Source of the DNA: Deltaproteobacteria bacterium
GTDB lineage: Bacteria; Desulfobacterota; Desulfarculia; Adiutricales; Adiutricaceae
Reading direction: 5' to 3'
Assembly: GCA_031273455.1 (NCBI GenBank)
Contig: JAISRZ010000065.1
Coordinates: forward strand, 46,907 to 110,906
Length of the DNA stretch: 64,000 nucleotides
The translations under genes and the position numbers were made by a program. Positions 2,163 through 43,146 of this stretch are shown piece after piece. How positions within the stretch are numbered: position 1 is the stretch's first letter; each line of letters begins with the position of its first letter. Below the pieces are notes generated by a model. That model saw only the letters and a list, made by a program, of their open reading frames with translations. It did not search any database and was not told the DNA's origin.

Positions 2163-3389
2163 TTAACCTCTGGTGGGGGATTTTCCCGCCTTAATGGTGT
2201 CTAAATAGTCCGCCCAATCCTGCATCATCTGACGCCTTTCGGGTAAGTATTGAGCGTGGTTATAAACGGCTCGAATTCCGCCTAAAACGTGGGCTAGCTG
2301 GGCCTCAATCCAGTCGGGGCTATAACCCTGCTCGTTTAAAATGGTGCTGGCCATAGCCCGGAAGCCGTGGGGGACTATCTCATCGGGGGTGAAGCCTATG
2401 ACACCCAAAGCAACCCTAAGCGTATTGTCGGATATACTTTGGGCCTTGTTGAAAGCTCCCGGAAAAACGAATCGGGACGCGAGCCCTAGGGCCTTAAGCT
2501 CCCTAAGTATCTCCAAAGCTTGGCGGCTTAAGGGGACAATGTGGGGCCGCTTCATCTTCATCTTGTCGGCTGGGATTCTCCACTCGGCCTTTTCTAGGTC
2601 GATCTCTGACCATTCCGCCTTTTGGAGTTCGCCCGGTCTGACAAAAACCAAGGGGAGTAATTGGAGCGCGTGTTTAACGACTTGATAACTCGGGTAATCG
2701 TCAACCGCCAATAGGAACCGCCTGATATCCTCGGGCCGGGTAAAGTGGGCCCGGCGCTTCGTGGCCTTAGTCCTTAAAGCTCCCTTCAGGTCCGGGGACG
2801 GGTCCCTTTTGGCCTTCCCTGTGGAGATCGCGTATCTGAAGACTTGGCCAGCGAAAATCATGGCCTTATGAGAGGTGGTTAAGAAGCCGTGGCTCTCAAT
2901 CCGCCTTAAGACGGCTAAAAGCTCTGGCGGCTCGATATCATCGACAGCGCGGGCGCCTAAGTAAGGGAATAGATGATTATTGATTAGTCCCCTTAACCCG
3001 CGAATATAACCCTCGGAACGGTCTTCCTTCAGGATCGTCAATAATTCTAAGGCAACCGCCTTAAAGCTCTTATCCTCATCGCTAGCGGCTCGGTTTAACC
3101 CAAGGGCGGTCTTGTACAGGGCCGGATTAAGCCCCTTAGCCAATAGTCGCTTGGCCGTGGCTAGTTTCTCCCTGGCCTCTTTAAGTTCGATCATCGGGTA
3201 ATGACCTAAGGTCAGGGTCTGGGCCTTGCCGTTATATTGATAAATGATTCTCCAGATCTTGGTTCCTGTCGTGGGGACGTAAATATAAAGCCCCTGGCCG
3301 TCCGCGATCTTATAGGGCTTATCTTTGGCCTTCAGGTTCTTTAGGGCAATATCAGACAATCGTTTTTTCCCGTTTTTAGTGTCGCTCAT
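2163..3389 (-). CDS. Tyrosine recombinase / P4-type integrase
   Basis: N-terminal DUF4102-like arm-binding region (LSDIALKNLKAKDKPYKIADGQGLYIYVPTTGTKIWRIIY). The catalytic set is present: R in VFVRPGELQ, HGFRAMAST, and AHVLGGIRAVYNHAQY. I trimmed the start to the Met at 3389 (MSDTKNG); the track ORF extends to 3500. Confidence 0.9.
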   Translation of the reverse strand: MSDTKNGKKRLSDIALKNLKAKDKPYKIADGQGLYIYVPTTGTKIWRIIYQYNGKAQTLTLGHYPMIELKEAREKLATAKRLLAKGLNPALYKTALGLNRAASDEDKSFKAVALELLTILKEDRSEGYIRGLRGLINNHLFPYLGARAVDDIEPPELLAVLRRIESHGFLTTSHKAMIFAGQVFRYAISTGKAKRDPSPDLKGALRTKATKRRAHFTRPEDIRRFLLAVDDYPSYQVVKHALQLLPLVFVRPGELQKAEWSEIDLEKAEWRIPADKMKMKRPHIVPLSRQALEILRELKALGLASRFVFPGAFNKAQSISDNTLRVALGVIGFTPDEIVPHGFRAMASTILNEQGYSPDWIEAQLAHVLGGIRAVYNHAQYLPERRQMMQDWADYLDTIKAGKSPTRG

Positions 3390-3700
3390 GGTCAATTTCT
3401 CCCGGTTGCTTAAGTATACCCAAAAAAGGAAAGTCGTTTTCGCGCTAAATTTATTGCTAAAGTGACTTAAAGTTATTGCTAGAAAAGGATAAAAGGTCAA
3501 TAGGGTATGGTCCGCTTTTTGGGCTGGATCATACCCGATATTATACCCAAAAATTATCGGTTGTCAATACTTTTTCCTAGTTTTCCTGGGGGTATTACTC
3601 TAAAATTTGGCTGGCAAAAATGGTCTGAAGCGCTTATGTGGTAAGGTTTATCGGGGTTCGCTGGTCTTTATCGGCTTATTGAGAATGGGTAAATTGGAAT

Positions 3701-6184: not shown

Positions 6185-6259
<75 letters not shown>

Positions 6260-14696: not shown

Positions 14697-15818
14697 TCAG
14701 CTCCCTGGGGCCGCTGGGGTCTCCGGGGCGGCCGGGGCCTGGTTCTGGGCGCTTTGCTGACGCTCTAAAATGGCTTTGGGGTCAATCCTTTTTTCGGAAA
14801 TGGCCTTAATTAAGCGAGCCGCTTTTTCCGGCTGGACCATGGCCAAGATCTTCCCGGCGTTGGAGCCGGGCATGACTGAAAGGATGCCCACGGCCACTTG
14901 ATCGTCCATGGAGTTAATGACTTGGCCAGCTTGCTCGGGCTTCATGCCCTTTAAGACCAGAACCAAATGCTCCACCCGGGCCTCTTTGGCCGCGTCCTCG
15001 GCGGAGCGCTTTTGTTCTTGGGCCGCTTTTTGCTCCTCTAAGATAGCTTGGTTGCGGGTTAAAAGATCGGCTAGCTCGGCTTTGGATTTTTCGCTGGCCG
15101 CGATCCGGGCGTTTAAATCGGCCTCCAACTCTTTAATGGCCTCTTCCCGAGCGTTTAACTGGGTCTCCCGGCGACTGAGCTCAAAGGCCCGTTTGGCTTG
15201 CTCCTCGGCCTCGGCTGGGGTTAAGTTGGCCGGCGGCGGTAAGGGCGGGCCGTTGGGGTTTTTTTGGTTGGTCGGCGGGGTGGGGCTCTTTTGGGGTTTT
15301 CTAAGATCCTCGTCCCCGGGTGGCAAAGGGATGGCCGGGGGGGCGGCGGCGGCGCTTTGGGCCATGGCCGGAAAGGCCGCCACATTAGCGTTTAAAAACA
15401 TGGCCGCCCCGGTGGTTAAGGCGTTGGCCGGTAAAGAGGCCGGGGACATAGCCGCTTGGGCCACGGCCGCTTGGGCCGCCCTCGGTTGGGTTAAAGCTTT
15501 AGCCCCGCTCTGGGCCGAAGGGGCGCTCGGTTTCTGGCTGGGGCTCGGGGGGTCGGTGACCCCATCCAGCCAACCGGAGATTAAGAGTCGGGCTATTAAG
15601 ACCATAACCGCTAAAACCGCGAGCAACCTAAATTTGGCCAATAACCCGCCCGTGGGTTTGGGGGCTGGTTTGGGGCTGGCCAAGGGCCCGGGCGGGGTTA
15701 AGGGCGCGGGTTTCGAGGCCGGGGCCTTGGGGCTTGGGGCTTTCGGGCTCGGGCTCGGGGATTTCGGGGCTATGGTTTTTGGCTGGGGGCTAGGGCCTGG
15801 GTTTTTAGCTGGCTTCAT
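14697..15818 (-). CDS. MotE/FlbB-like flagellar protein with a MgtE_N-type C-terminal domain
   Basis: Pro-rich N-terminus, one TM segment, a coiled coil, and the C-terminal LVLKGMKPEQAGQVINSMDDQVAVGILSVMPGSNAGKILAMVQPEKAARL (MgtE intracellular N-domain pattern). It overlaps the 3' end of fliJ. Confidence 0.65.
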   Translation of the reverse strand: MKPAKNPGPSPQPKTIAPKSPSPSPKAPSPKAPASKPAPLTPPGPLASPKPAPKPTGGLLAKFRLLAVLAVMVLIARLLISGWLDGVTDPPSPSQKPSAPSAQSGAKALTQPRAAQAAVAQAAMSPASLPANALTTGAAMFLNANVAAFPAMAQSAAAAPPAIPLPPGDEDLRKPQKSPTPPTNQKNPNGPPLPPPANLTPAEAEEQAKRAFELSRRETQLNAREEAIKELEADLNARIAASEKSKAELADLLTRNQAILEEQKAAQEQKRSAEDAAKEARVEHLVLVLKGMKPEQAGQVINSMDDQVAVGILSVMPGSNAGKILAMVQPEKAARLIKAISEKRIDPKAILERQQSAQNQAPAAPETPAAPGS

Positions 15819-16281
15819 CGCTCTCCACCGTTTGTTTTAAACGCCTGGCTCTGGCTATTTGAGCCATTTCCTCTAAGTTATTTTGTTCCGTCCGGCGGTC
15901 TTCCAGGATAAAGTTTTCTTTTTGGCGATCCCGGGTTTTCTCAATAGCCTCGCGGGCGGTGATGGCTTGGATTAGGGCTTGGCGCTCTTTGGCCTCCTCG
16001 CGGCGGCTTAAGACTAGAAGCTCCTCGGCTTTTTTTAGGTCTTGGCGTAAGCGCCCTTGATACTCGCCGTACAGGCGGACCAAGGGCCCGGTTAAGCGCC
16101 CGATCTGGCCTAACGTTTTAACCTCAGTGGCCATCTCGTTAATCCGCGCCCAGAGGGACTGGATTTTTTCCTCCAGCTCGGCCAGACTGGCCAGGCGTCG
16201 CGACAGTTTTAAGGCCGCTTCCTCCTCGCGTTGTCGCCGGAGGGTCACCAGAAAATCTAGACGGAACTTAAAGGCGGGCAT
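15805..16281 (-). CDS. fliJ: Flagellar export chaperone FliJ
   Basis: 158-aa all-helical coiled-coil protein. It starts MPAFKFRLDFLVTLRRQREEEAALKL, which is the FliJ family N-terminal pattern, and is followed by a MotE-like gene. Confidence 0.6.
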   Translation of the reverse strand: MPAFKFRLDFLVTLRRQREEEAALKLSRRLASLAELEEKIQSLWARINEMATEVKTLGQIGRLTGPLVRLYGEYQGRLRQDLKKAEELLVLSRREEAKERQALIQAITAREAIEKTRDRQKENFILEDRRTEQNNLEEMAQIARARRLKQTVESDEAS

Positions 16282-36146: not shown

Positions 36147-39100
36147 TCATAGCTCTTGGGTGGTTTGGGCGGCCCCGCCTAAAACGGGCTCGTCATTGCG
36201 GGTCCGGTAGGTGGTCTGACAAGACCGGTTGGAGCAGCTATAAAAGTCATAGTCCTCGCCAGTTTTCCGACTGGTGCCCTTCCGGCGGATTAAGGGGCTG
36301 TGGCAAGCCGGGCACTTAAAATCGGATAAGACCGGTTTATCGCGGGGCGGGTTTTTCGGCCCAGGGGCGCCGTTATCGTCCTGGTAGGTGGTCCCGCAGT
36401 TCCGGTCCGAGCAAGCCCAGAAGTTGTAGCCAGTGGGGCCATCTTTAGTTAACCGCTTTAGCCGTTGGCCGCAAACCTCGCAGACGTGGCTCGTTAGCTC
36501 GCTTTTGCCGGATTTCTCCCCGGGTTCCCCATTATTGTCCTGGAATTTGGCCCCACAGTTCCGGTCCGAGCAAGCCCAGAAGTTGTAACCATTAGGCCCT
36601 TCCTTAACGATGTGGTTCAGAGCCAAACCGCAATCCGGGCACTTAAACTCGGAAAGGGTGGATTTACCGGATTTCTCCCCGGGCTGGCCATTATTGTCTT
36701 GGAACTTGGCCCCGCAGTTGGCTCGATCCGAGCATGCCCAGAAGTTGTAACCATTGGGCCCGTCTTTAATCACATGGTCTAAAGACGATTGACCGCAGGC
36801 TGGGCATTGGACACTCGTGTTTCGCCGACTGCCTTGCTTTTCCCCAGGTTTACCGTTATCGTCCTTAAACGTGGAGCCGCAATTGGCCCGATCCGAGCAA
36901 GCCCAAAAGTTGTAACCATTGGCCCCTTCTTTAACGATGTGGCTAAGGGGCTGGCCGCAAGACTGGCACTTTTCGTCCGTTAAGGAGGAGGCTTGGTTTT
37001 TATCACCGGGTTTACCGTTATCGTCCTTAAACGTGGAGCCGCAATTGGCCCGATCCGAGCAAGCCCAAAAGTTGTAACCATTGGCCCCTTCTTTAACGAT
37101 ATGGTTCAGGGGCTGGCCGCAAGACTGGCATTTTTCGTCCGTTAATGAGGCGGAGGCTTGGCTCCTTTCCCCGGGTTTACCGTTATTGTCCTTGAACTTG
37201 GCCCCACAGTTGTCCCGATCCGAGCAAGCCCAGAAGTTGTAACCATTAGGCCCGTCTTTGACTAGGTGGTTAAGCGGTTGGCCGCAAGAAAGGCAGAGCT
37301 CATCGGAAACTTCCCTTCGGCCTTGCTTTTCCCCAGGCGAACCGTTATTGTCCTTGTACTTGGCCCCGCAGGTTTGCGTGTTGGAGCAAGCCCAAAAGTT
37401 ATAGCCGTTAGGCCCATCTTTCACGAGGTGGCTAAGCGGCTGGCCGCAAGACTGGCATATTTGGTCCGATAAAGCGGCCCGTTGGCTTTTTTCCCCGGGC
37501 GATCCGTTATTGTCCTTGAACTTGGCCCCGCAGTTGTCCCGATCCGAGCAAGCCCAGAAGTTGTAACCATTAGGCCCGTCTTTAACCAAGTGGATTAAAG
37601 GTTGGCCGCACTCCTGGCAATTCTTGTCGGAAACTTCCCTTCGACCTTGCTTTTCCCCAGGTTGACCGTTATTGTCCTTGAACTTGGCCCCGCAACTATC
37701 CAAGTTGGAGCAAGCCCAAAAGTTATAGCCAGTTGGCCCGTCTTTGACGATGTGGTTTAAAGGCTGGCCACAATCCGAGCATAATTGATCTGTCAATTCG
37801 TTTCTCCCGCTTAACTCCCCAGGCGCGCCCTGGTTATCGCTGAAGATGGCCCCGCATTGGGTTTTGTTGGCACAAGCCCAAAAAGCGTAGCCATTAGGTC
37901 CAATTTTAACTATATGATATAAATTTTGACCGCATTTAGGACATAGTTCGTTGGTTAGCTCACTTTTATGGTTTTGGGCCCCGGGTCTATTGTTCTGGTC
38001 TTTAAAAGTGGCCCCGCAACGCTCTCGGTCCAGGCAAGCCCAGAACCGGTAACCGCCTGGGCCCTCTTTGACAAAGCGCTTTAAGGGCCCGCCGCAAACC
38101 GGGCAATTGGCCCCATGGCCCACGCTAAATTTTTTCAGCTCGCTTTCTAAAACGTCATTGGCTTTACTGACCACGCTTAAGTAGTCCAGTTGGCCTTGGG
38201 CGATCTGATCGAGCTTTTCCTCCAAGAGCTTCGTGTACTCGTAGTCCACAAATCCAAAGGTGGATTTGAGGTAAGAGATGAGCTCATCGCCCAACTGGGT
38301 GGACTCTAACATCCGTTTTTTGTTTTCGACAATATACCCGCGGGTCATGATATTGTCTAAAATGGCGGCGTAGGTGGAGGGCCGGCCAATGCCTCTTTTC
38401 TCTAGCTCCCGGATGAGGGCCGCCTGGGTGAACCTGGGCGGTGGGTTGGTTTTACTGGTTTTAACCTTACTCCCAATAGGCGAATAGTTGGCCTTTAGGG
38501 TTAGCTTCGGAACCGGGTTATTGAGCTCAGCCGCGTCTTGCCGATCTTTAGACTCATCGGCCTGGTCCTCGGTTAAAACGGTTTTCCAGCCAGGCTCGAT
38601 TAATCGTCGGCCTTTAGCCTCAAAGACCGCTTTCCGGCCATTTAAGCTAGCCCCTAAGGTGGCCTTGGCCGTGGCGTAGGTGGCGTTGGCCAGTTGGCTC
38701 GCCATGGTCCGTTTCCAGATGAGATTGTACAAAGCTTGGGCCAAAGGGTCATCGCCGGCTTTATCCACTTTCATATCGGTAGGGCGAATGGCCTCATGGG
38801 CTTCCTGGGCCCCTTTGGGGGCCTTAAAGACCCGGGGCTCTTTGGGTAAGGGCCAATTTTTATCCCCAGCCACCTTGCGGATGTCTTTAATGGCTTCGTC
38901 CGAAAGGGCCTGGCTATCGGTTCGCATATAGGTGATGAGACCGGCCTCGTACAGCCTCTGGGCGATCTCCATGGTCTTTTTGGGGTTCAGCTTTAAATGG
39001 TTGCTAGCCGCTTGCTGAAGCGTGGAGGTGGTGAAAGGCGGGGGCGGGTTCTTTTGGGCCCGGCCCTCCTCATAGTCCTCCGCGGTGAGCGTTTTTAGGG

Positions 39101-39863
39101 CGGCTATTTCGGCGGCGATCTTCTTATCGACAAAACGCTCTTGCCCCGGCTCTAACCAGTTTTTAGGGTTCCAGACCGCCGTCCAGTTAGCGGTCGCCTC
39201 CAGACCTTCGCTCAAAACCGCGTCCTGGCCCTGGCTGGCCAAGGGGTCTGGGGCGGAACTCGAAAAAACGTTAGCCGGTTGAGGCCCAAAGTTTAGCTCC
39301 ACCCCGTAATAGGTCGTGGACTTAAAGCTCTGGATGGCCTGTTCCCGTTCCACGATGATCCGTAAAGCCGGGGTCTGGACTCGACCGGCGGACAAAGTTT
39401 TGCCCGCCACCCCCGAGACCGCTGGGGAGACCCCGTAACCCACCAGACGATCCAAAGTCCGCCGCCCGAGCTGGGCTTGGACCAGATTGTCGTCAATGGG
39501 CCTGGGGTTAGCCAAGGCCTTTTTAATGGCCGGGCTGGTTATTTCCGTGTAAGTGACCCGGGGCGGGTCCACTAAGTTTAAGGCTTCCTTTAAGTGCCAA
39601 GCGATGGCCTCGCCCTCCCGGTCTGGGTCAGTGGCTAAGAAGACCTCCTCGGCTTGGTCGGTTAAAAGCTTTAGATCTTTAATGACTTTTTGCCCCCGAA
39701 GCGTGGCTTCGTATTGGGGGACAAAGTCCGGCGGGTAAACGCCCGGGTGGTTGGGCGGCAGATCCCGGACGTGACCGATACTGGCGGCCACGCGCCATCC
39801 GGCCCCTAAAAAGGACTGGATTTTTTTTATTTTACCCGGTGACTCAACGATTAAAAGCTTCAT
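36147..39863 (-). CDS. topA: DNA topoisomerase I (type IA) with 12 C-terminal C4 zinc-ribbon modules
   Basis: Toprim N-terminus MKLLIVESPGKIKKIQSFLG...VASIGHVRDLP. Active-site Tyr context GLITYMRTDS. Then 12 repeats of C-x2-C-G-x-x-L-x-H-x-V-K-x-G-P-N-G-Y-N-F-W-A-C-x4-5-C-G (zf-C4_Topoisom pattern). The start was trimmed to the Met at 39863. Confidence 0.92.
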   Translation of the reverse strand: MKLLIVESPGKIKKIQSFLGAGWRVAASIGHVRDLPPNHPGVYPPDFVPQYEATLRGQKVIKDLKLLTDQAEEVFLATDPDREGEAIAWHLKEALNLVDPPRVTYTEITSPAIKKALANPRPIDDNLVQAQLGRRTLDRLVGYGVSPAVSGVAGKTLSAGRVQTPALRIIVEREQAIQSFKSTTYYGVELNFGPQPANVFSSSAPDPLASQGQDAVLSEGLEATANWTAVWNPKNWLEPGQERFVDKKIAAEIAALKTLTAEDYEEGRAQKNPPPPFTTSTLQQAASNHLKLNPKKTMEIAQRLYEAGLITYMRTDSQALSDEAIKDIRKVAGDKNWPLPKEPRVFKAPKGAQEAHEAIRPTDMKVDKAGDDPLAQALYNLIWKRTMASQLANATYATAKATLGASLNGRKAVFEAKGRRLIEPGWKTVLTEDQADESKDRQDAAELNNPVPKLTLKANYSPIGSKVKTSKTNPPPRFTQAALIRELEKRGIGRPSTYAAILDNIMTRGYIVENKKRMLESTQLGDELISYLKSTFGFVDYEYTKLLEEKLDQIAQGQLDYLSVVSKANDVLESELKKFSVGHGANCPVCGGPLKRFVKEGPGGYRFWACLDRERCGATFKDQNNRPGAQNHKSELTNELCPKCGQNLYHIVKIGPNGYAFWACANKTQCGAIFSDNQGAPGELSGRNELTDQLCSDCGQPLNHIVKDGPTGYNFWACSNLDSCGAKFKDNNGQPGEKQGRREVSDKNCQECGQPLIHLVKDGPNGYNFWACSDRDNCGAKFKDNNGSPGEKSQRAALSDQICQSCGQPLSHLVKDGPNGYNFWACSNTQTCGAKYKDNNGSPGEKQGRREVSDELCLSCGQPLNHLVKDGPNGYNFWACSDRDNCGAKFKDNNGKPGERSQASASLTDEKCQSCGQPLNHIVKEGANGYNFWACSDRANCGSTFKDDNGKPGDKNQASSLTDEKCQSCGQPLSHIVKEGANGYNFWACSDRANCGSTFKDDNGKPGEKQGSRRNTSVQCPACGQSSLDHVIKDGPNGYNFWACSDRANCGAKFQDNNGQPGEKSGKSTLSEFKCPDCGLALNHIVKEGPNGYNFWACSDRNCGAKFQDNNGEPGEKSGKSELTSHVCEVCGQRLKRLTKDGPTGYNFWACSDRNCGTTYQDDNGAPGPKNPPRDKPVLSDFKCPACHSPLIRRKGTSRKTGEDYDFYSCSNRSCQTTYRTRNDEPVLGGAAQTTQEL
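36220..38105 (-). repeat. Coding tandem array: 12 zinc-ribbon modules of about 47-54 aa
   Basis: The array runs from CPVCGGPLKRFVKEGPGGYRFWACLDRERCG to CPACHSPLIRRKG...FYSCSNRSCQ. I counted the units from the translation. Units 7 and 8 are almost identical at DNA level. Confidence 0.9.
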
Positions 39864-40555
39864 GAAATCCTTTGTAAAATATCTATAGCGGCCTAAAATG
39901 GCCAAACTAGACGGTCAAACTAGGGACCAAAAAAGAGCCCTTAAGGTCATCGCTTGGGGGCGAAAGCGAGTTTAGACCTTAGCCTGGGGCTCTCTGGATT
40001 TTGGGCCAGTTTAAAGAGATCATACACCATATTGGTCTTTTTGTCATCTCCTGACCGCTAACACCGAAAAGATATTTAATGATATATTCGGCTTTTGTTT
40101 AAGTCTAATCATCGTTTAATTAATATTTTATACACAATTACGATAGTGAATAGCTAAATAAGTAATTATATTCTATGTATTTATAAAAACAAGTTTATTT
40201 AATGACGTATAATTATTTTTTAAGTTTTAGGTTGGGTGAATTTAGAGGGAAATTAAAGTTTAACCGGTCAGCTTTCGTCTGGCTCAAAGATACCCTTAAA
40301 CCAGGCTCTTTTAGAGCCCAATTTAGCTTAAGTGGCTTATTTAATTAGATTTTTGGCTTTAAATTGGCCAGAGAAAAATATTTTAGGCTTTGGGGCGAGG
40401 TTTTAAAAGGGCCTTAAAAGGGTTAGCGAACGGTTAAAGTTAGGTGGATTTTTTTCGAAAAAACACTATACTGACCCCCAAGAAAAAGAACCTAAAAACG
40501 CTTTTTAAAGGCCTTTTAAGGGCCTTCGCTCAATCCACCCTAAGGGGGGAAGGTT

Positions 40556-40975
40556 ATGGGCCGCGCTCCCGAAGTGGTCCACCGGATCATGGCCAAAATA
40601 AGGTCCAAGGACACGGGCCCGGAGATTAAATTGCGGAAAGCCTTATGGAGCTTAGGCTTTCGTTACCGGGTCAACGTTAAGGATCTGCCGGGCCGACCGG
40701 ATCTGGTCTTTCGGAAGGCCAAGGTGGCCGTTTTTTGCGATGGCGACTATTGGCACGGCCACAACTGGGCTTTACGGGGTTTAAGCTCTTTAGCCGAGGA
40801 ACTTGAGGGTTACGCCCCCTATTGGCGAGCCAAGATCCAAAGGAACGTTACGCGCGATCTGGTGGTCACCGATAGTTTAAAGGCTTTAGGTTTTACGGTC
40901 TTGCGTTTTTGGGCCAGCGACATTGAGCGCGATCTGGCCAAGTGCCTTTTAGCTATCCAAAAGGCTTTGCCTTAA
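40556..40975 (+). CDS. vsr: Very-short-patch repair endonuclease
   Basis: RSKDTGPEIKLRKALWSLGFRYRVN..LPGRPDLVFRKAKVAVFCDGDYWHGHNW matches Vsr family motifs. 139 aa. Confidence 0.85.
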   Translation: MGRAPEVVHRIMAKIRSKDTGPEIKLRKALWSLGFRYRVNVKDLPGRPDLVFRKAKVAVFCDGDYWHGHNWALRGLSSLAEELEGYAPYWRAKIQRNVTRDLVVTDSLKALGFTVLRFWASDIERDLAKCLLAIQKALP

Positions 40976-41014: not shown

Positions 41015-41791
41015 ATGGCGCCCCCTAAATTCGAGAAGGAAACCAGGCCTAACCGATTGGAGTTTTGGAACCGGAAGGCTAAAACCTTTCCCCGCTACAG
41101 CCCAGGGGAAAACACCTATGAGGCTGGGGTTTTACAGCTGGCTAAGGATAATGGGGCGGTCTTCGCCGGGGCCCGGGTTTTAGACGTGGGGGCCGGAACC
41201 GGGCTGTACACGGTCAGGATCGCCCAAGAGGCCCAAGAAGTGGTGGCCGTGGATTTTTCTTCGGAGATGCTGGCCATTTTAGAGGAAGACGCCGCGAAAC
41301 TTAACCTCACCAACATTAAAACCCATAATATCGGTTGGCTGGAGTTTCCTTTAAACGGGGAGTTTAACGTCGTTTATTGCTCCATGTGCCCGGCCATGGG
41401 CCAGCCTGGGGGGCTGGAAAAGGTCTTAACTATCCCCAAAGCCCAAGTCGTCTATTTGGGCTGGAACGGTTTATTGCGCTCCAATGTCTTAACCGGCTTA
41501 TACGAGACTTATAAGGTCACGCCCAAAACCTTTGACTCGGCTGGCCCGACTCGGGCCTTTTTAGACGAGAATAAGGTTAAATACACGACCGCGCCGGTGG
41601 AGGGGACCTGGCGGGTCCGCTTTTCCTTGGAGCTTTTAACCGATAGCGTCGTTCAGAACTTAAGCGACTATGGGGTGGAGCCGGATCTAGACCAGATAAC
41701 CTCTTACCTCAAAACCTTTCAAGAGCCGGACGGTCAGTGCGTGGAAGTGACTGATTACAAAATTCAGATGATCCTCTGGCGCAACTCCTGA
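41015..41791 (+). CDS. Class I SAM-dependent methyltransferase (small-molecule type; no DNA-MTase motifs seen)
   Basis: Motif I VLDVGAGTGLYT and an acidic post-I residue (VVAVDFS). I found no PCQ/ENV (C5) or DPPY (N6/N4) motifs. Confidence 0.75.
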   Translation: MAPPKFEKETRPNRLEFWNRKAKTFPRYSPGENTYEAGVLQLAKDNGAVFAGARVLDVGAGTGLYTVRIAQEAQEVVAVDFSSEMLAILEEDAAKLNLTNIKTHNIGWLEFPLNGEFNVVYCSMCPAMGQPGGLEKVLTIPKAQVVYLGWNGLLRSNVLTGLYETYKVTPKTFDSAGPTRAFLDENKVKYTTAPVEGTWRVRFSLELLTDSVVQNLSDYGVEPDLDQITSYLKTFQEPDGQCVEVTDYKIQMILWRNS

Positions 41792-42134: not shown

Positions 42135-43146
42135 ATGGACGATTTTAAGACCTCAACCTCTAAGAACAGACCTTCGAAATCGAAAGCCTCTAAGCCCAAG
42201 ACCTCAAAGCCTAAGGAGTTCCCATCGCCGCTGGCCGACCCGGTGTTTGGAGCGATTTTTGAGTCGGCCAACCTAAGCGGTCTGGCTCTTAAAAGTCTGG
42301 TCAACGCGATCTTGGCTGACTCCAAAGACCCAGAGATTGGCGATGTTCTGACAGTAACTCCCCAGAGAGTCCACTCGGGCGTGGGTAAACGCGGTGTTCG
42401 CCTAGACGTTGAAGCGACCACGACCACTAACGATTTTGTCAATGTCGAAGTCCAATTGCTCTCTTTTAAATTCATAAGCGATCTTCTTTTTTTGTACTCC
42501 CAGATGGCTTTAGAGTCCAACCTTAAAAGAGGAAGTAAACTCAAAGATGATTTTAAAATAAGGCCACGTTCGATCTCTGTCGGTATCCTGGACTATATCC
42601 TAAGGCCCAATGGGAAAAATTTTCATCAGGTTGCGGAACTATATTTCCGCGAAGAACCTCGGGAACTCCTGGTCAACAATTGGGAACTACACTTCCTTCA
42701 GTCGCCGATATTTTAAGAGACAAACCCTGAGGTGACCAATCCGTTTCAGCTTTGGATTATGGCTATAACCAAGGCCCCTGGCCTTAAAATATCCACGCCT
42801 AAAGGTAGTTGAAATGGATGAAAATTTGAAAAAATTTTATGAGACCGATGAGGGTTTCGCCCAGTACGTTGACCGCCATGATTTGGTAGGGTCGCGTCCG
42901 AGCGTTAAGAGAGCCTATCGTAAGTTTGCGATAGAGCAATATCTGATAGCGAGTGAAATGGCCCTTAGGTCCGCCGAGGATAAAGCCGAGGCCATCATGA
43001 ATTTATCGTTGACCGCCTTCAGGACGGGATCGTCTGAATCTGACGATCGTGGCGTCGCGGAAACATTGGAAAAAATCGGTGTCCCAAAAGACATTATCAT
43101 TAAAGCTCGGGCCATGGTCCAAGCCGAACGCAAGAAAAAAGGTTGA
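42135..43146 (+). pseudogene. Rpn-family PD-(D/E)XK nuclease / putative transposase (TIGR01784-type), split by at least two frameshifts
   Basis: The N-terminal ORF has ADPVFGAIFES...GVRLDVEATTTTNDFVNVEVQ (D...ExQ nuclease core) and ends ...ELHFLQSPIF*. A second frame reads ETNPEVTNPFQLWIMAITKA. A third frame (42814-43146) carries the family C-terminal region. Confidence 0.6.

What the first reader, a model, noticed from the sequence alone, without database searches (positions are those of the whole stretch)
36147..39863. Topoisomerase I with an expanded array of 12 tandem C4 zinc ribbons
Seen in the sequence: after a normal Toprim and type IA core (catalytic Tyr in GLITYMRTDS), the protein continues for about 630 aa. 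That region consists of 12 consecutive modules, each C-x2-C...FWAC-x4-5-C-G followed by (K/Q)DNNG-x-PGEK linkers.

Established knowledge: E. coli TopA has three tetracysteine motifs plus two Zn-ribbon-like domains. Many bacteria have 0-4.

Inference: the array could give an unusually long ssDNA or RNA-polymerase tether. It may also vary in copy number between strains.
Basis: partly seen in the sequence, partly recalled or inferred. Interest (0 to 1): 0.7.

Follow-up and report, generated by a model that had tools for sequence, protein, structure and literature searches.

The report
Topoisomerase I with 12 zinc ribbons
This is a genuine, intact bacterial DNA topoisomerase I whose DNA-binding tail has grown by repeated internal duplication to 12 zinc-ribbon modules (published surveys I read list at most 5), and it belongs to a small uncultured lineage in which such tails reach 9 to 28 modules.

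Summary
Window 36147-39863 (minus strand) encodes a 1238-aa TopA. It has a normal Toprim and type IA core (catalytic Tyr312), followed by 12 four-cysteine modules with all 48 Cys present.

Eleven modules share one 53-56 aa type (C-x2-C...GYNFWAC-x4/5-C-G...DNNGxPGEK). The twelfth is a distinct terminal ribbon.

It is not an assembly artefact:
- Unit DNA identity is mostly 55-80%.
- Synonymous sites are near saturation for most unit pairs.
- dN/dS is 0.13-0.41.
- The longest exact repeat is 92 nt.

It is not unique either. Seventeen relatives from uncultured "Deltaproteobacteria" MAGs carry 9-24 modules, and one representative has 28. By ThrRS the lineage lies near Candidatus Adiutricales. The nearest outgroups have 3 modules.

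Modules 1, 11 and 12 are positional orthologues of the ancestral three. Modules 2-10 arose by amplification within the lineage.

The AlphaFold model (pLDDT 87) is an all-beta zinc ribbon. Its best PDB matches are the E. coli TopoI chains, but only weakly (E about 0.09). The Trp at the known ssDNA-stacking position is conserved in 97% of 244 modules.

The most likely function is an extended ssDNA-binding tail that raises affinity or processivity; this is inferred, not shown. I rate it a new variant of a known kind, of moderate interest.

The parts
36147..39863 (-). topA ORF, 1238 aa plus stop codon (36147-36149)
   Evidence: the ATG start is supported by homologue N-termini
39868..39872 (-). 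Shine-Dalgarno-like AAGGA, 5-9 nt upstream of the ATG
   Evidence: read directly from the sequence
39543..39857 (-). Toprim domain (aa 3-107), with IVESPGK at aa 5 and DPDREGE at aa 79
38169..39497 (-). Type IA core, Topoisom_bac (aa 123-565)
   Evidence: E 6.5e-108
38928..38930 (-). Codon of catalytic Tyr312 (GLITYMRTDS)
37962..38123 (-). Module u1 (aa 581-634), positional orthologue of the first module in relatives
   Evidence: best match is P0001 u1
36501..37961 (-). Modules u2-u10 (aa 635-1121), the amplified block; each is closest to another module of the same protein
36825..37148 (-). u7 and u8, the youngest duplicate pair (92% DNA identity, dS 0.35, 92-nt exact repeat)
36333..36500 (-). 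Module u11 (aa 1122-1177), the conserved penultimate type (CSDRNC, PGPKNPPR...SDFK)
   Evidence: best match is the penultimate module of P0010
36150..36332 (-). Module u12 (aa 1178-1238), the terminal ribbon; the only stretch that passes PF01396 on its own

Best explanation
This is a functional chromosomal topoisomerase I. Its C-terminal ssDNA-binding region was enlarged by tandem duplication of an internal zinc-ribbon module.

The ancestral tail, seen in the nearest 3-module relatives, has a first ribbon, a penultimate ribbon and a distinct terminal ribbon. In this lineage the internal type was amplified to give 12 modules.

Each module is a small all-beta, four-Cys zinc ribbon. It keeps the aromatic residue (Trp at Cys3-2) that in E. 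coli TopA stacks on ssDNA bases. At the published 2-3 nt per ribbon, 12 ribbons could hold roughly 24-36 nt of unwound DNA.

The likely consequence (inferred) is much stronger or longer-range capture of the single-stranded T-strand, or of ss/ds junctions, in negatively supercoiled DNA and behind RNA polymerase. That would give higher affinity or processivity. It would work like the lysine repeats of Streptomyces TopA, but through a different structural solution.

Shown: the gene, the module anatomy, purifying selection, the mode of expansion, the distribution across the lineage, and the predicted fold.

Inferred: zinc binding, ssDNA binding, and the effect on activity.
For: Enzyme identity: Toprim, Topoisom_bac and TIGR01051 above its cutoff. 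The catalytic Glu, DxD and Tyr motifs are intact.

The array is real and under selection:
- All 48 Cys are conserved.
- dN/dS is 0.13-0.41 and dS is mostly above 0.8.
- Thirteen independent contigs from other MAGs carry 9-24 modules.
- In P0013, P0015 and P0017, which share roughly 45% identity with the query, nearly all of the 11 modules match a module in another protein better than one in the same protein.

Mode of origin: u1, u11 and u12 best match the first, penultimate and terminal modules of other proteins, whereas u2-u10 best match one another. The 3-module proteins are the nearest outgroups in the core tree.

Fold: AF2 with an MSA gives pLDDT 87.1 and five beta strands per module. The top two Foldseek PDB matches are E. 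coli TopoI chains 9gdh_F and 9gda_F, with probability 0.93 and 0.91.

DNA-binding residues: across 244 modules, Trp at Cys3-2 is 97% conserved (100% aromatic), and three further positions are 91-97% aromatic. The literature places the primary ssDNA-stacking site two residues before Cys3 on beta3, and gives 2-3 nt per ribbon (PMC9369019, PMC4678816, PMC10969213).

Context: the neighbourhood is chromosomal (ThrRS, heptosyltransferase, AraC) and partly syntenic with relatives.
Against: - The amplified modules are nearly charge-neutral (net -2 to +2; tail pI about 6-8). The 3-module relatives have basic tails of pI 8.7-9.1. Electrostatic attraction to nucleic acid is therefore weak, and binding would have to rely on stacking.
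- The second aromatic site described for canonical ribbons (Cys3+2) is Asp here.
- The modules fall below Pfam's PF01396 threshold individually. A profile of them finds no TopA chain in the PDB by sequence. The Foldseek E-values are only about 0.09.
- No biochemical data exist for any member.
- Whether this is the organism's only TopA is unknown.
Confidence: 0.6

Rival explanations
1. The array serves mainly as a protein-interaction scaffold. It might be a long tether to RNA polymerase or another partner, or a multivalent platform, rather than an ssDNA binder.
For: E. coli TopA zinc ribbons were reported to contact the RNAP beta' subunit (cited in 10.1101/2024.10.07.617030 and PMC4678816). The amplified modules are near neutral rather than basic. 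TopA-like paralogues with degenerate catalytic motifs keep 7-8 of the same modules, so the array may have value independent of catalysis.
Against: The cryo-EM study found that DNA, not protein contacts, drives the stability of the RNAP-TopoI complex (10.1101/2024.10.07.617030). The most conserved surface features are aromatic residues at the known base-stacking position. Nothing explains why one partner would need 9-28 identical docking sites.
Confidence: 0.13
2. The array binds RNA. It would target the enzyme to R-loops or transcripts, or confer RNA topoisomerase activity, rather than bind ssDNA in supercoiled DNA.
For: Type IA enzymes can act on RNA, and C-terminal zinc-finger or RGG elements are implicated in RNA binding in TOP3B (PMC10969213). 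Base stacking by aromatic residues does not discriminate well between ssDNA and ssRNA.
Against: There is no direct evidence. The closest structural matches are the DNA-bound E. coli TopoI ribbons. The core is a bona fide TopA equivalog.
Confidence: 0.1
3. The expansion is functionally neutral repeat growth: a slippage- or recombination-prone region tolerated at the end of an essential protein, with no adaptive role.
For: Internal modules cluster by protein. Near-identical neighbouring units occur in P0001, P0003 and P0008 (96-98% identity). Copy number ranges widely, from 9 to 28.
Against: Every module keeps all four Cys and the aromatic set. dN/dS is well below 1 even between old duplicates. 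An 11-module array has been kept with positional orthology across three diverged proteins. No module shows decay or frameshift.
Confidence: 0.08
4. The 12-unit array is an assembly artefact: units were mis-joined or duplicated in silico.
For: It is a tandem repeat with a 162-nt period. u7 and u8 share a 92-nt exact stretch, so the copy number of that particular pair could in principle be mis-estimated.
Against: Units are 55-82% identical in DNA apart from u7/u8 at 92%. Only five exact repeats of 30 nt or more exist. The frame is unbroken. Independent assemblies of related genomes show the same architecture.
Confidence: 0.03

Closest known systems
E. coli topoisomerase I (TopA) C-terminal domains D5-D9 (PDB 4RUL; RNAP-TopoI complexes 9gda and 9gdh)
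   Same: Same enzyme family and same overall plan: a type IA core followed by tandem four-Cys zinc ribbons that carry an aromatic residue on beta3. These are the best structural matches for the modelled modules.
   Different: E. coli has 3 zinc ribbons plus 2 cysteine-less ribbon-like domains; this protein has 12 true C4 ribbons. The modules here have an extra fifth strand (the DNNG-xPGEK hairpin), are near neutral in charge, and are too divergent to reach the PF01396 threshold individually.
Three-module TopA of related uncultured Deltaproteobacteria and Desulfovibrio (P0019-P0021, P0047, P0052; about 715-720 aa)
   Same: The core is 46-56% identical. In P0019-P0021 the first, penultimate and terminal modules are of the same types.
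   Different: There is no internal amplification, and the tails are basic at pI 8.7-9.1.
Streptomyces and actinobacterial TopA with C-terminal lysine repeats
   Same: [quoted passage not shown] This is the functional analogy proposed here.
   Different: Those repeats are unstructured, basic and lack cysteines. The modules here are folded, near-neutral zinc ribbons.
zf-GRF zinc fingers (PF06839) of eukaryotic TOP3A, APE2 and NEIL3
   Same: They are small C4 all-beta ssDNA-binding fingers with a G-x-x-aromatic-aromatic-x-C signature. Module u9 scores 22.2 bits against PF06839.
   Different: That score is below the family cutoff of 25.9, and only one module matches. GRF fingers are described as three-stranded (PMC9369019).

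Membership tests
Bacterial DNA topoisomerase I (TopA, type IA) | Toprim domain with the catalytic Glu and the acidic DxD motif | tested here: met
   PF01751 at aa 3-107, E 6.9e-17. IVESPGK at aa 5 and DPDREGE at aa 79.
Bacterial DNA topoisomerase I (TopA, type IA) | Type IA core with the active-site Tyr | tested here: met
   PF01131 at aa 123-565, E 6.5e-108. Tyr312 lies in GLITYMRTDS.
Bacterial DNA topoisomerase I (TopA, type IA) | Score above the curated equivalog cutoff (TIGR01051 topA_bact) | tested here: met
   516.1 bits against a cutoff of 456.4. The TopB, reverse gyrase and archaeal models all fall below their cutoffs.
Bacterial DNA topoisomerase I (TopA, type IA) | Relaxes negative supercoils; is the sole or housekeeping TopA of the cell | not testable with these tools
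   There is only one type IA core in the 64-kb window. The rest of the genome was not available.
Topo_C_ZnRpt / Zn_ribbon_Top1 (PF01396) | Four Zn-ligand cysteines arranged as CxxC ... C-xn-C | tested here: met
   12 of 12 modules, 48 Cys in total.
Topo_C_ZnRpt / Zn_ribbon_Top1 (PF01396) | Match to the family HMM at the curated threshold | tested here: inconclusive
   The whole protein scores 64.5 bits against a cutoff of 32, but only the terminal module passes as a stretch. Scanned singly, 8 of 12 modules hit at E<0.01. The hits among u2-u11 score 16.9-20.8 bits. u3, u6 and u11 have no hit at E<=0.1, and u1 has none at E<=0.01.
Topo_C_ZnRpt / Zn_ribbon_Top1 (PF01396) | Antiparallel beta-sheet zinc-ribbon fold with two knuckles | tested here: inconclusive
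   The AF2 model has pLDDT 87.1 and is all-beta, with CxxC after beta1 and Cys3/Cys4 flanking the beta3-beta4 loop. The best Foldseek PDB matches are E. coli TopoI chains at probability 0.91-0.93, but E is about 0.09 and TM-scores are low for the two-module query.
Topo_C_ZnRpt / Zn_ribbon_Top1 (PF01396) | Aromatic residue on beta3, two residues before Cys3 (the primary ssDNA-stacking site) | tested here: met
   Trp in modules 1-11 and Tyr in module 12. Trp is 97% conserved and the position is 100% aromatic across 244 modules of 19 proteins. The criterion comes from PMC9369019.
Topo_C_ZnRpt / Zn_ribbon_Top1 (PF01396) | Binds Zn(II) and ssDNA | not testable with these tools
   This needs metal analysis and binding assays.
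zf-GRF (PF06839) | Match to the family HMM at the curated threshold | tested here: not met
   Only module u9 hits, at 22.2 bits against a cutoff of 25.9.

The most novel reading that the evidence does not exclude
The amplified, near-neutral, Trp-bearing ribbons may form a new kind of long, semi-rigid ssDNA or R-loop 'ruler' or coating module whose function is partly independent of strand passage. In this reading TopA doubles as a nucleoid or ssDNA-organising protein in this lineage. The hint is the existence of sister TopA-like proteins (P0126-P0128). These have lost the catalytic Glu and DxD motifs, and in one case the Tyr, yet they retain 7-8 of the same modules.
Probability: 0.2. Interest if true: 0.75.

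Novelty: new variant of a known kind. Interest (0 to 1): 0.55.

Why it matters
How the number and kind of C-terminal repeats tune type IA topoisomerase activity is an open question. Published surveys tabulate 0-5 zinc ribbons per bacterial TopA.

This clade offers a natural series of orthologous enzymes with 3, 9-16, 21, 24 and 28 ribbons. That makes the dose-response of ribbon number on ssDNA capture, processivity and coupling to transcription directly testable.

It also shows that Pfam-threshold domain counts miss such arrays, so similar expansions may be hidden elsewhere. And it documents an essential housekeeping enzyme evolving by ongoing tandem module amplification.

Tried and rejected
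- The genome-contig scan with the full protein was saturated by the generic TopA peptide EGEAIAWH.
- An exact look-up of the window's own protein found no record.
- Single-sequence AlphaFold of four modules failed (pLDDT 41.7). An MSA of 46 two-module segments was needed.
- A profile of the modules against PDB sequences gave only chance zinc-knuckle hits (MsrB, PKC C1) and no TopA.
- I fetched the ThrRS flanks of isolate Smac51 (CP026657) and of AP022828 to see their topA. The genes are not linked there, so the tail architecture in named relatives remains unknown.
- Literature searches for the JGI and SRA sample identifiers found nothing, so the habitat of the related MAGs is not documented here. 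A termite-gut origin is only my recollection of where Adiutrix relatives occur.
- A mobile-element origin was considered. Conjugative-plasmid topA genes are 42-43% identical. That is no closer than chromosomal Desulfovibrio TopA (46-48%), and the local gene context is chromosomal. I rejected this reading.
- The high G+C stretch at 10-16 kb was checked as a possible island. It holds enolase, a CheZ-like protein and a periplasmic binding protein, so it does not look like one.
Full report
OBSERVATION

The stated interval holds a single long ORF on the minus strand (36147-39905). The ATG at 39863 is the likely start. An AAGGA Shine-Dalgarno sits 5-9 nt upstream, and every homologue starts MKLLIVESPGK. 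The product is 1238 aa.

Pfam finds Toprim (aa 3-107) and the type IA core (aa 123-565, E 6.5e-108). NCBIfam's topA_bact equivalog scores 516 bits against a cutoff of 456, while the TopB, reverse-gyrase and archaeal models fall below theirs. The catalytic motifs are intact: IVESPGK, DPDREGE, and Tyr312 in GLITYMRTDS.

From aa 581 to the C-terminus there are exactly 12 C-x2-C...C-xn-C modules, 48 cysteines in all. Tandem Repeats Finder sees the same region as arrays with 162- and 324-nt periods.
- The gene is on the minus strand.
- The tail is 658 aa.
- Only 11 modules have the GYNFWAC...DNNGxPGEK pattern. Module 12 is a different, terminal ribbon.

IS IT AN ARTEFACT?

No.
- Pairwise DNA identity between units is mostly 55-82%. 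Only u7/u8 reach 92%.
- Synonymous divergence is near saturation for most pairs (dS above 0.8), with dN/dS of 0.13-0.41. The youngest pair, u7/u8, has dS 0.35.
- The longest exact repeat in the array is 92 nt, and only five exact repeats of 30 nt or more exist.
- The reading frame is unbroken, and no module has lost a cysteine.
- Independent assemblies of related genomes show the same architecture.

HOW UNUSUAL IS IT?

A search of 5.8 billion proteins returned 17 relatives with 9-24 modules: P0001 (1851 aa) has 24, P0007 has 21, and the partial P0011 has at least 18. All are annotated only as MAG "Deltaproteobacteria bacterium". The next-best hits, at 50-56% core identity, are proteins of about 720 aa with three modules.

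A profile of the 11 repeated modules was run against 1.84 billion cluster representatives. It matched only 253 proteins at E<=0.001. About a dozen of these have 7 or more matched stretches. The largest is P0121, N-terminally truncated at 1870 aa, with 28.

The published survey of TopA C-terminal repeats lists at most 5 zinc ribbons in its main table, and 3-4 for the Deltaproteobacteria in its supplement (PMC9369019). A 2024 review adds nothing larger (PMC10969213). I found no paper describing such arrays.

So 12 ribbons is far outside the described range, but it is a trait of a small lineage in which 12 is mid-range.

WHICH ORGANISM?

The adjacent ThrRS has its nearest named relatives in "Deltaproteobacteria bacterium Smac51" (68%), Candidatus Adiutrix sp. 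(66-67%) and Ca. Adiutrix intracellularis (62%). Unnamed MAGs are closer, at 70-79%. Adiutrix is classified in Candidatus Adiutricales, Thermodesulfobacteriota.

ThrRS lies on the same contigs as the long TopA genes P0003 and P0004, judging by matching contig lengths. The P0001 contig shares the aldo-keto reductase, AraC, topA and outer-membrane-protein order with the window. The context is chromosomal, not a mobile element.

ANATOMY AND ORIGIN OF THE ARRAY

Three-module relatives (P0019, P0020) have three kinds of module:
- a first ribbon (GYNFWAC-x5-C);
- a penultimate ribbon (CSDRNC with x4 spacing, followed by PG.K..P...S[DE]FK);
- a distinct terminal ribbon (..RKG.S.KTG.DYDFF.CSN..C).

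In the window protein, u1, u11 and u12 best match the first, penultimate and terminal modules of other proteins. Each of u2-u10 best matches another module of the same protein. The same holds for P0001, P0003, P0006 and P0008, where neighbouring units can be 96-98% identical.

This points to repeated amplification of internal modules within each lineage, or to concerted evolution, between conserved end modules. By contrast, P0015 and P0017 (11 modules each) have no module, and P0013 only one, whose best match lies in its own protein. That array looks old and stably maintained.

In a neighbour-joining tree of the core, the long-array proteins form essentially one clade with 3-module proteins as outgroups. 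One 2-module group nests inside it. The tree has no support values, so loss versus independent gain is unresolved.

WHAT ARE THE MODULES?

By sequence they are weak members of PF01396. The whole protein passes (64.5 bits against a cutoff of 32), but only the terminal module passes as a stretch. Among the repeated modules, 7 score 16.9-20.8 bits and 4 do not hit. Counting Pfam hits at standard thresholds would therefore report one ribbon, not twelve, which probably explains why architecture-based surveys have not flagged these proteins. A module profile finds no TopA chain in the PDB by sequence.

By structure, AlphaFold with a 46-sequence MSA of two-module segments gives pLDDT 87.1. Each module has:
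- beta1 before CxxC;
- beta2;
- beta3 (YNFWAC), ending at Cys3;
- beta4 after Cys4 (KFKDN);
- a fifth strand (xPGEK) that forms a hairpin through the DNNG turn.

The supposed linker is thus mostly structured, and only 4-5 residues remain flexible between modules. The relative orientation of the modules is uncertain (pTM 0.50).

Foldseek's two best PDB matches are the E. coli TopoI chains of the RNAP-TopoI complexes (probability 0.93 and 0.91, E about 0.09). Other zinc ribbons follow: Rpb9/C11, the Bxb1 recombinase ribbon and Trm112. The fold assignment is therefore reasonable but not statistically strong.

MECHANISM

In E. coli TopA each ribbon binds 2-3 nt of ssDNA, mainly by pi-stacking on a beta3 aromatic residue. 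Mutating that residue lowers processive relaxation (PMC4678816). The residue lies two positions before Cys3 (PMC9369019).

Across 244 non-terminal modules from 19 proteins of this clade, that position is Trp in 97% of modules and aromatic in 100%. Three further positions are 91-97% aromatic.

In cryo-EM complexes the TopoI tail binds the ss/ds junction behind RNA polymerase and acts as a supercoiling sensor, and DNA contacts dominate the stability of the complex (10.1101/2024.10.07.617030).

I therefore infer that the 12-ribbon tail captures a much longer stretch of unwound DNA (roughly 24-36 nt) than ordinary TopA does, raising affinity or processivity on underwound DNA or R-loops. This would work like the lysine repeats of Streptomyces TopA.

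One caution applies. The amplified modules are nearly neutral (net -2 to +2), and long tails have pI about 6-8, against 8.7-9.1 for 3-module tails. Binding would then depend on stacking rather than charge, and a protein-scaffold or RNA-binding role cannot be excluded.

VERDICT

This is a real, selected, lineage-specific hyper-expansion of a known domain type in a known enzyme: a new variant of a known kind. It is not a singular oddity of this genome and not a new system. However, the clade's range of 3 to 28 ribbons is well beyond anything I could find described, and it offers a natural experiment on tail length in type IA topoisomerases. Interest is moderate, at 0.55.

Noticed in passing
not in the window; proteins P0126, P0127, P0128: These are TopA-like paralogues of the same clade (they keep the WNP[KR]NWL motif) that carry 7-8 of the same zinc modules. 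Their catalytic motifs are degenerate: DPDREGE has become PPDADGE, PPDGEGE or GYDRIGE; the IVES Glu is lost in P0127; and ITYMRTD reads ITHPITD in P0126. They may be catalytically dead 'pseudo-topoisomerases' that retain only the binding array.
   Followed up: partly
not in the window; P0121, P0007, P0011-P0018: A second subclade has arrays built from two alternating module types..SYNYWKC..G..DD..GAPDP.. and ..GGYDFW.CS.R.C R..F.D..G.PDF. These are followed by one or two canonical GCSGFP.C ribbons before the terminal module. P0121 reaches 28 modules.
   Followed up: partly
window 39185-39280 approx. (aa 196-226 of TopA): There is a low-complexity insertion (PANVFSSSAPDPLASQGQDAVLSEGLEATAN) in the core just before the WNPKNW motif, relative to P0001. 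P0006, P0008 and P0017 carry much longer Gly/Ala/Glu-rich insertions at the same site (P0018's long insertion lies elsewhere).
   Followed up: no
window 40556-40975 (+) and 41015-41791 (+): A Vsr very-short-patch repair endonuclease gene (PF03852, E 1.6e-28) lies directly upstream of topA on the other strand. It is followed by a generic SAM methyltransferase that does not match a DNA cytosine methyltransferase family, so Vsr has no adjacent Dcm-type partner. The methyltransferase is also found near topA in P0004's contig.
   Followed up: partly
window 42135-42716 (+): A PD-(D/E)XK nuclease-family transposase-like ORF (PF12784, E 2.5e-13) sits between the methyltransferase and ThrRS, in a low-GC stretch (0.41-0.46).
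   Followed up: no
window 2163-3500 (-) and tRNA at 6188-6259 (-): A tyrosine integrase (Arm-DNA-bind_3, Phage_int_M and Phage_integrase domains) lies about 2.7 kb from a tRNA gene in lower-GC DNA. An integrated element may lie at the left end of the window.
   Followed up: no
window 14697-15818 (-) and 14908-15840 (+): Two long ORFs overlap on opposite strands in a high-GC stretch (0.58-0.62). The minus-strand ORF has no Pfam match, so which one is the real gene is unclear.
   Followed up: no
plasmid collection: Conjugative plasmids of about 35-60 kb from many Gammaproteobacteria carry a topA that is 42-43% identical to this core and has a short zinc-ribbon tail. This is about as similar as chromosomal Desulfovibrio TopA.
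   Followed up: no
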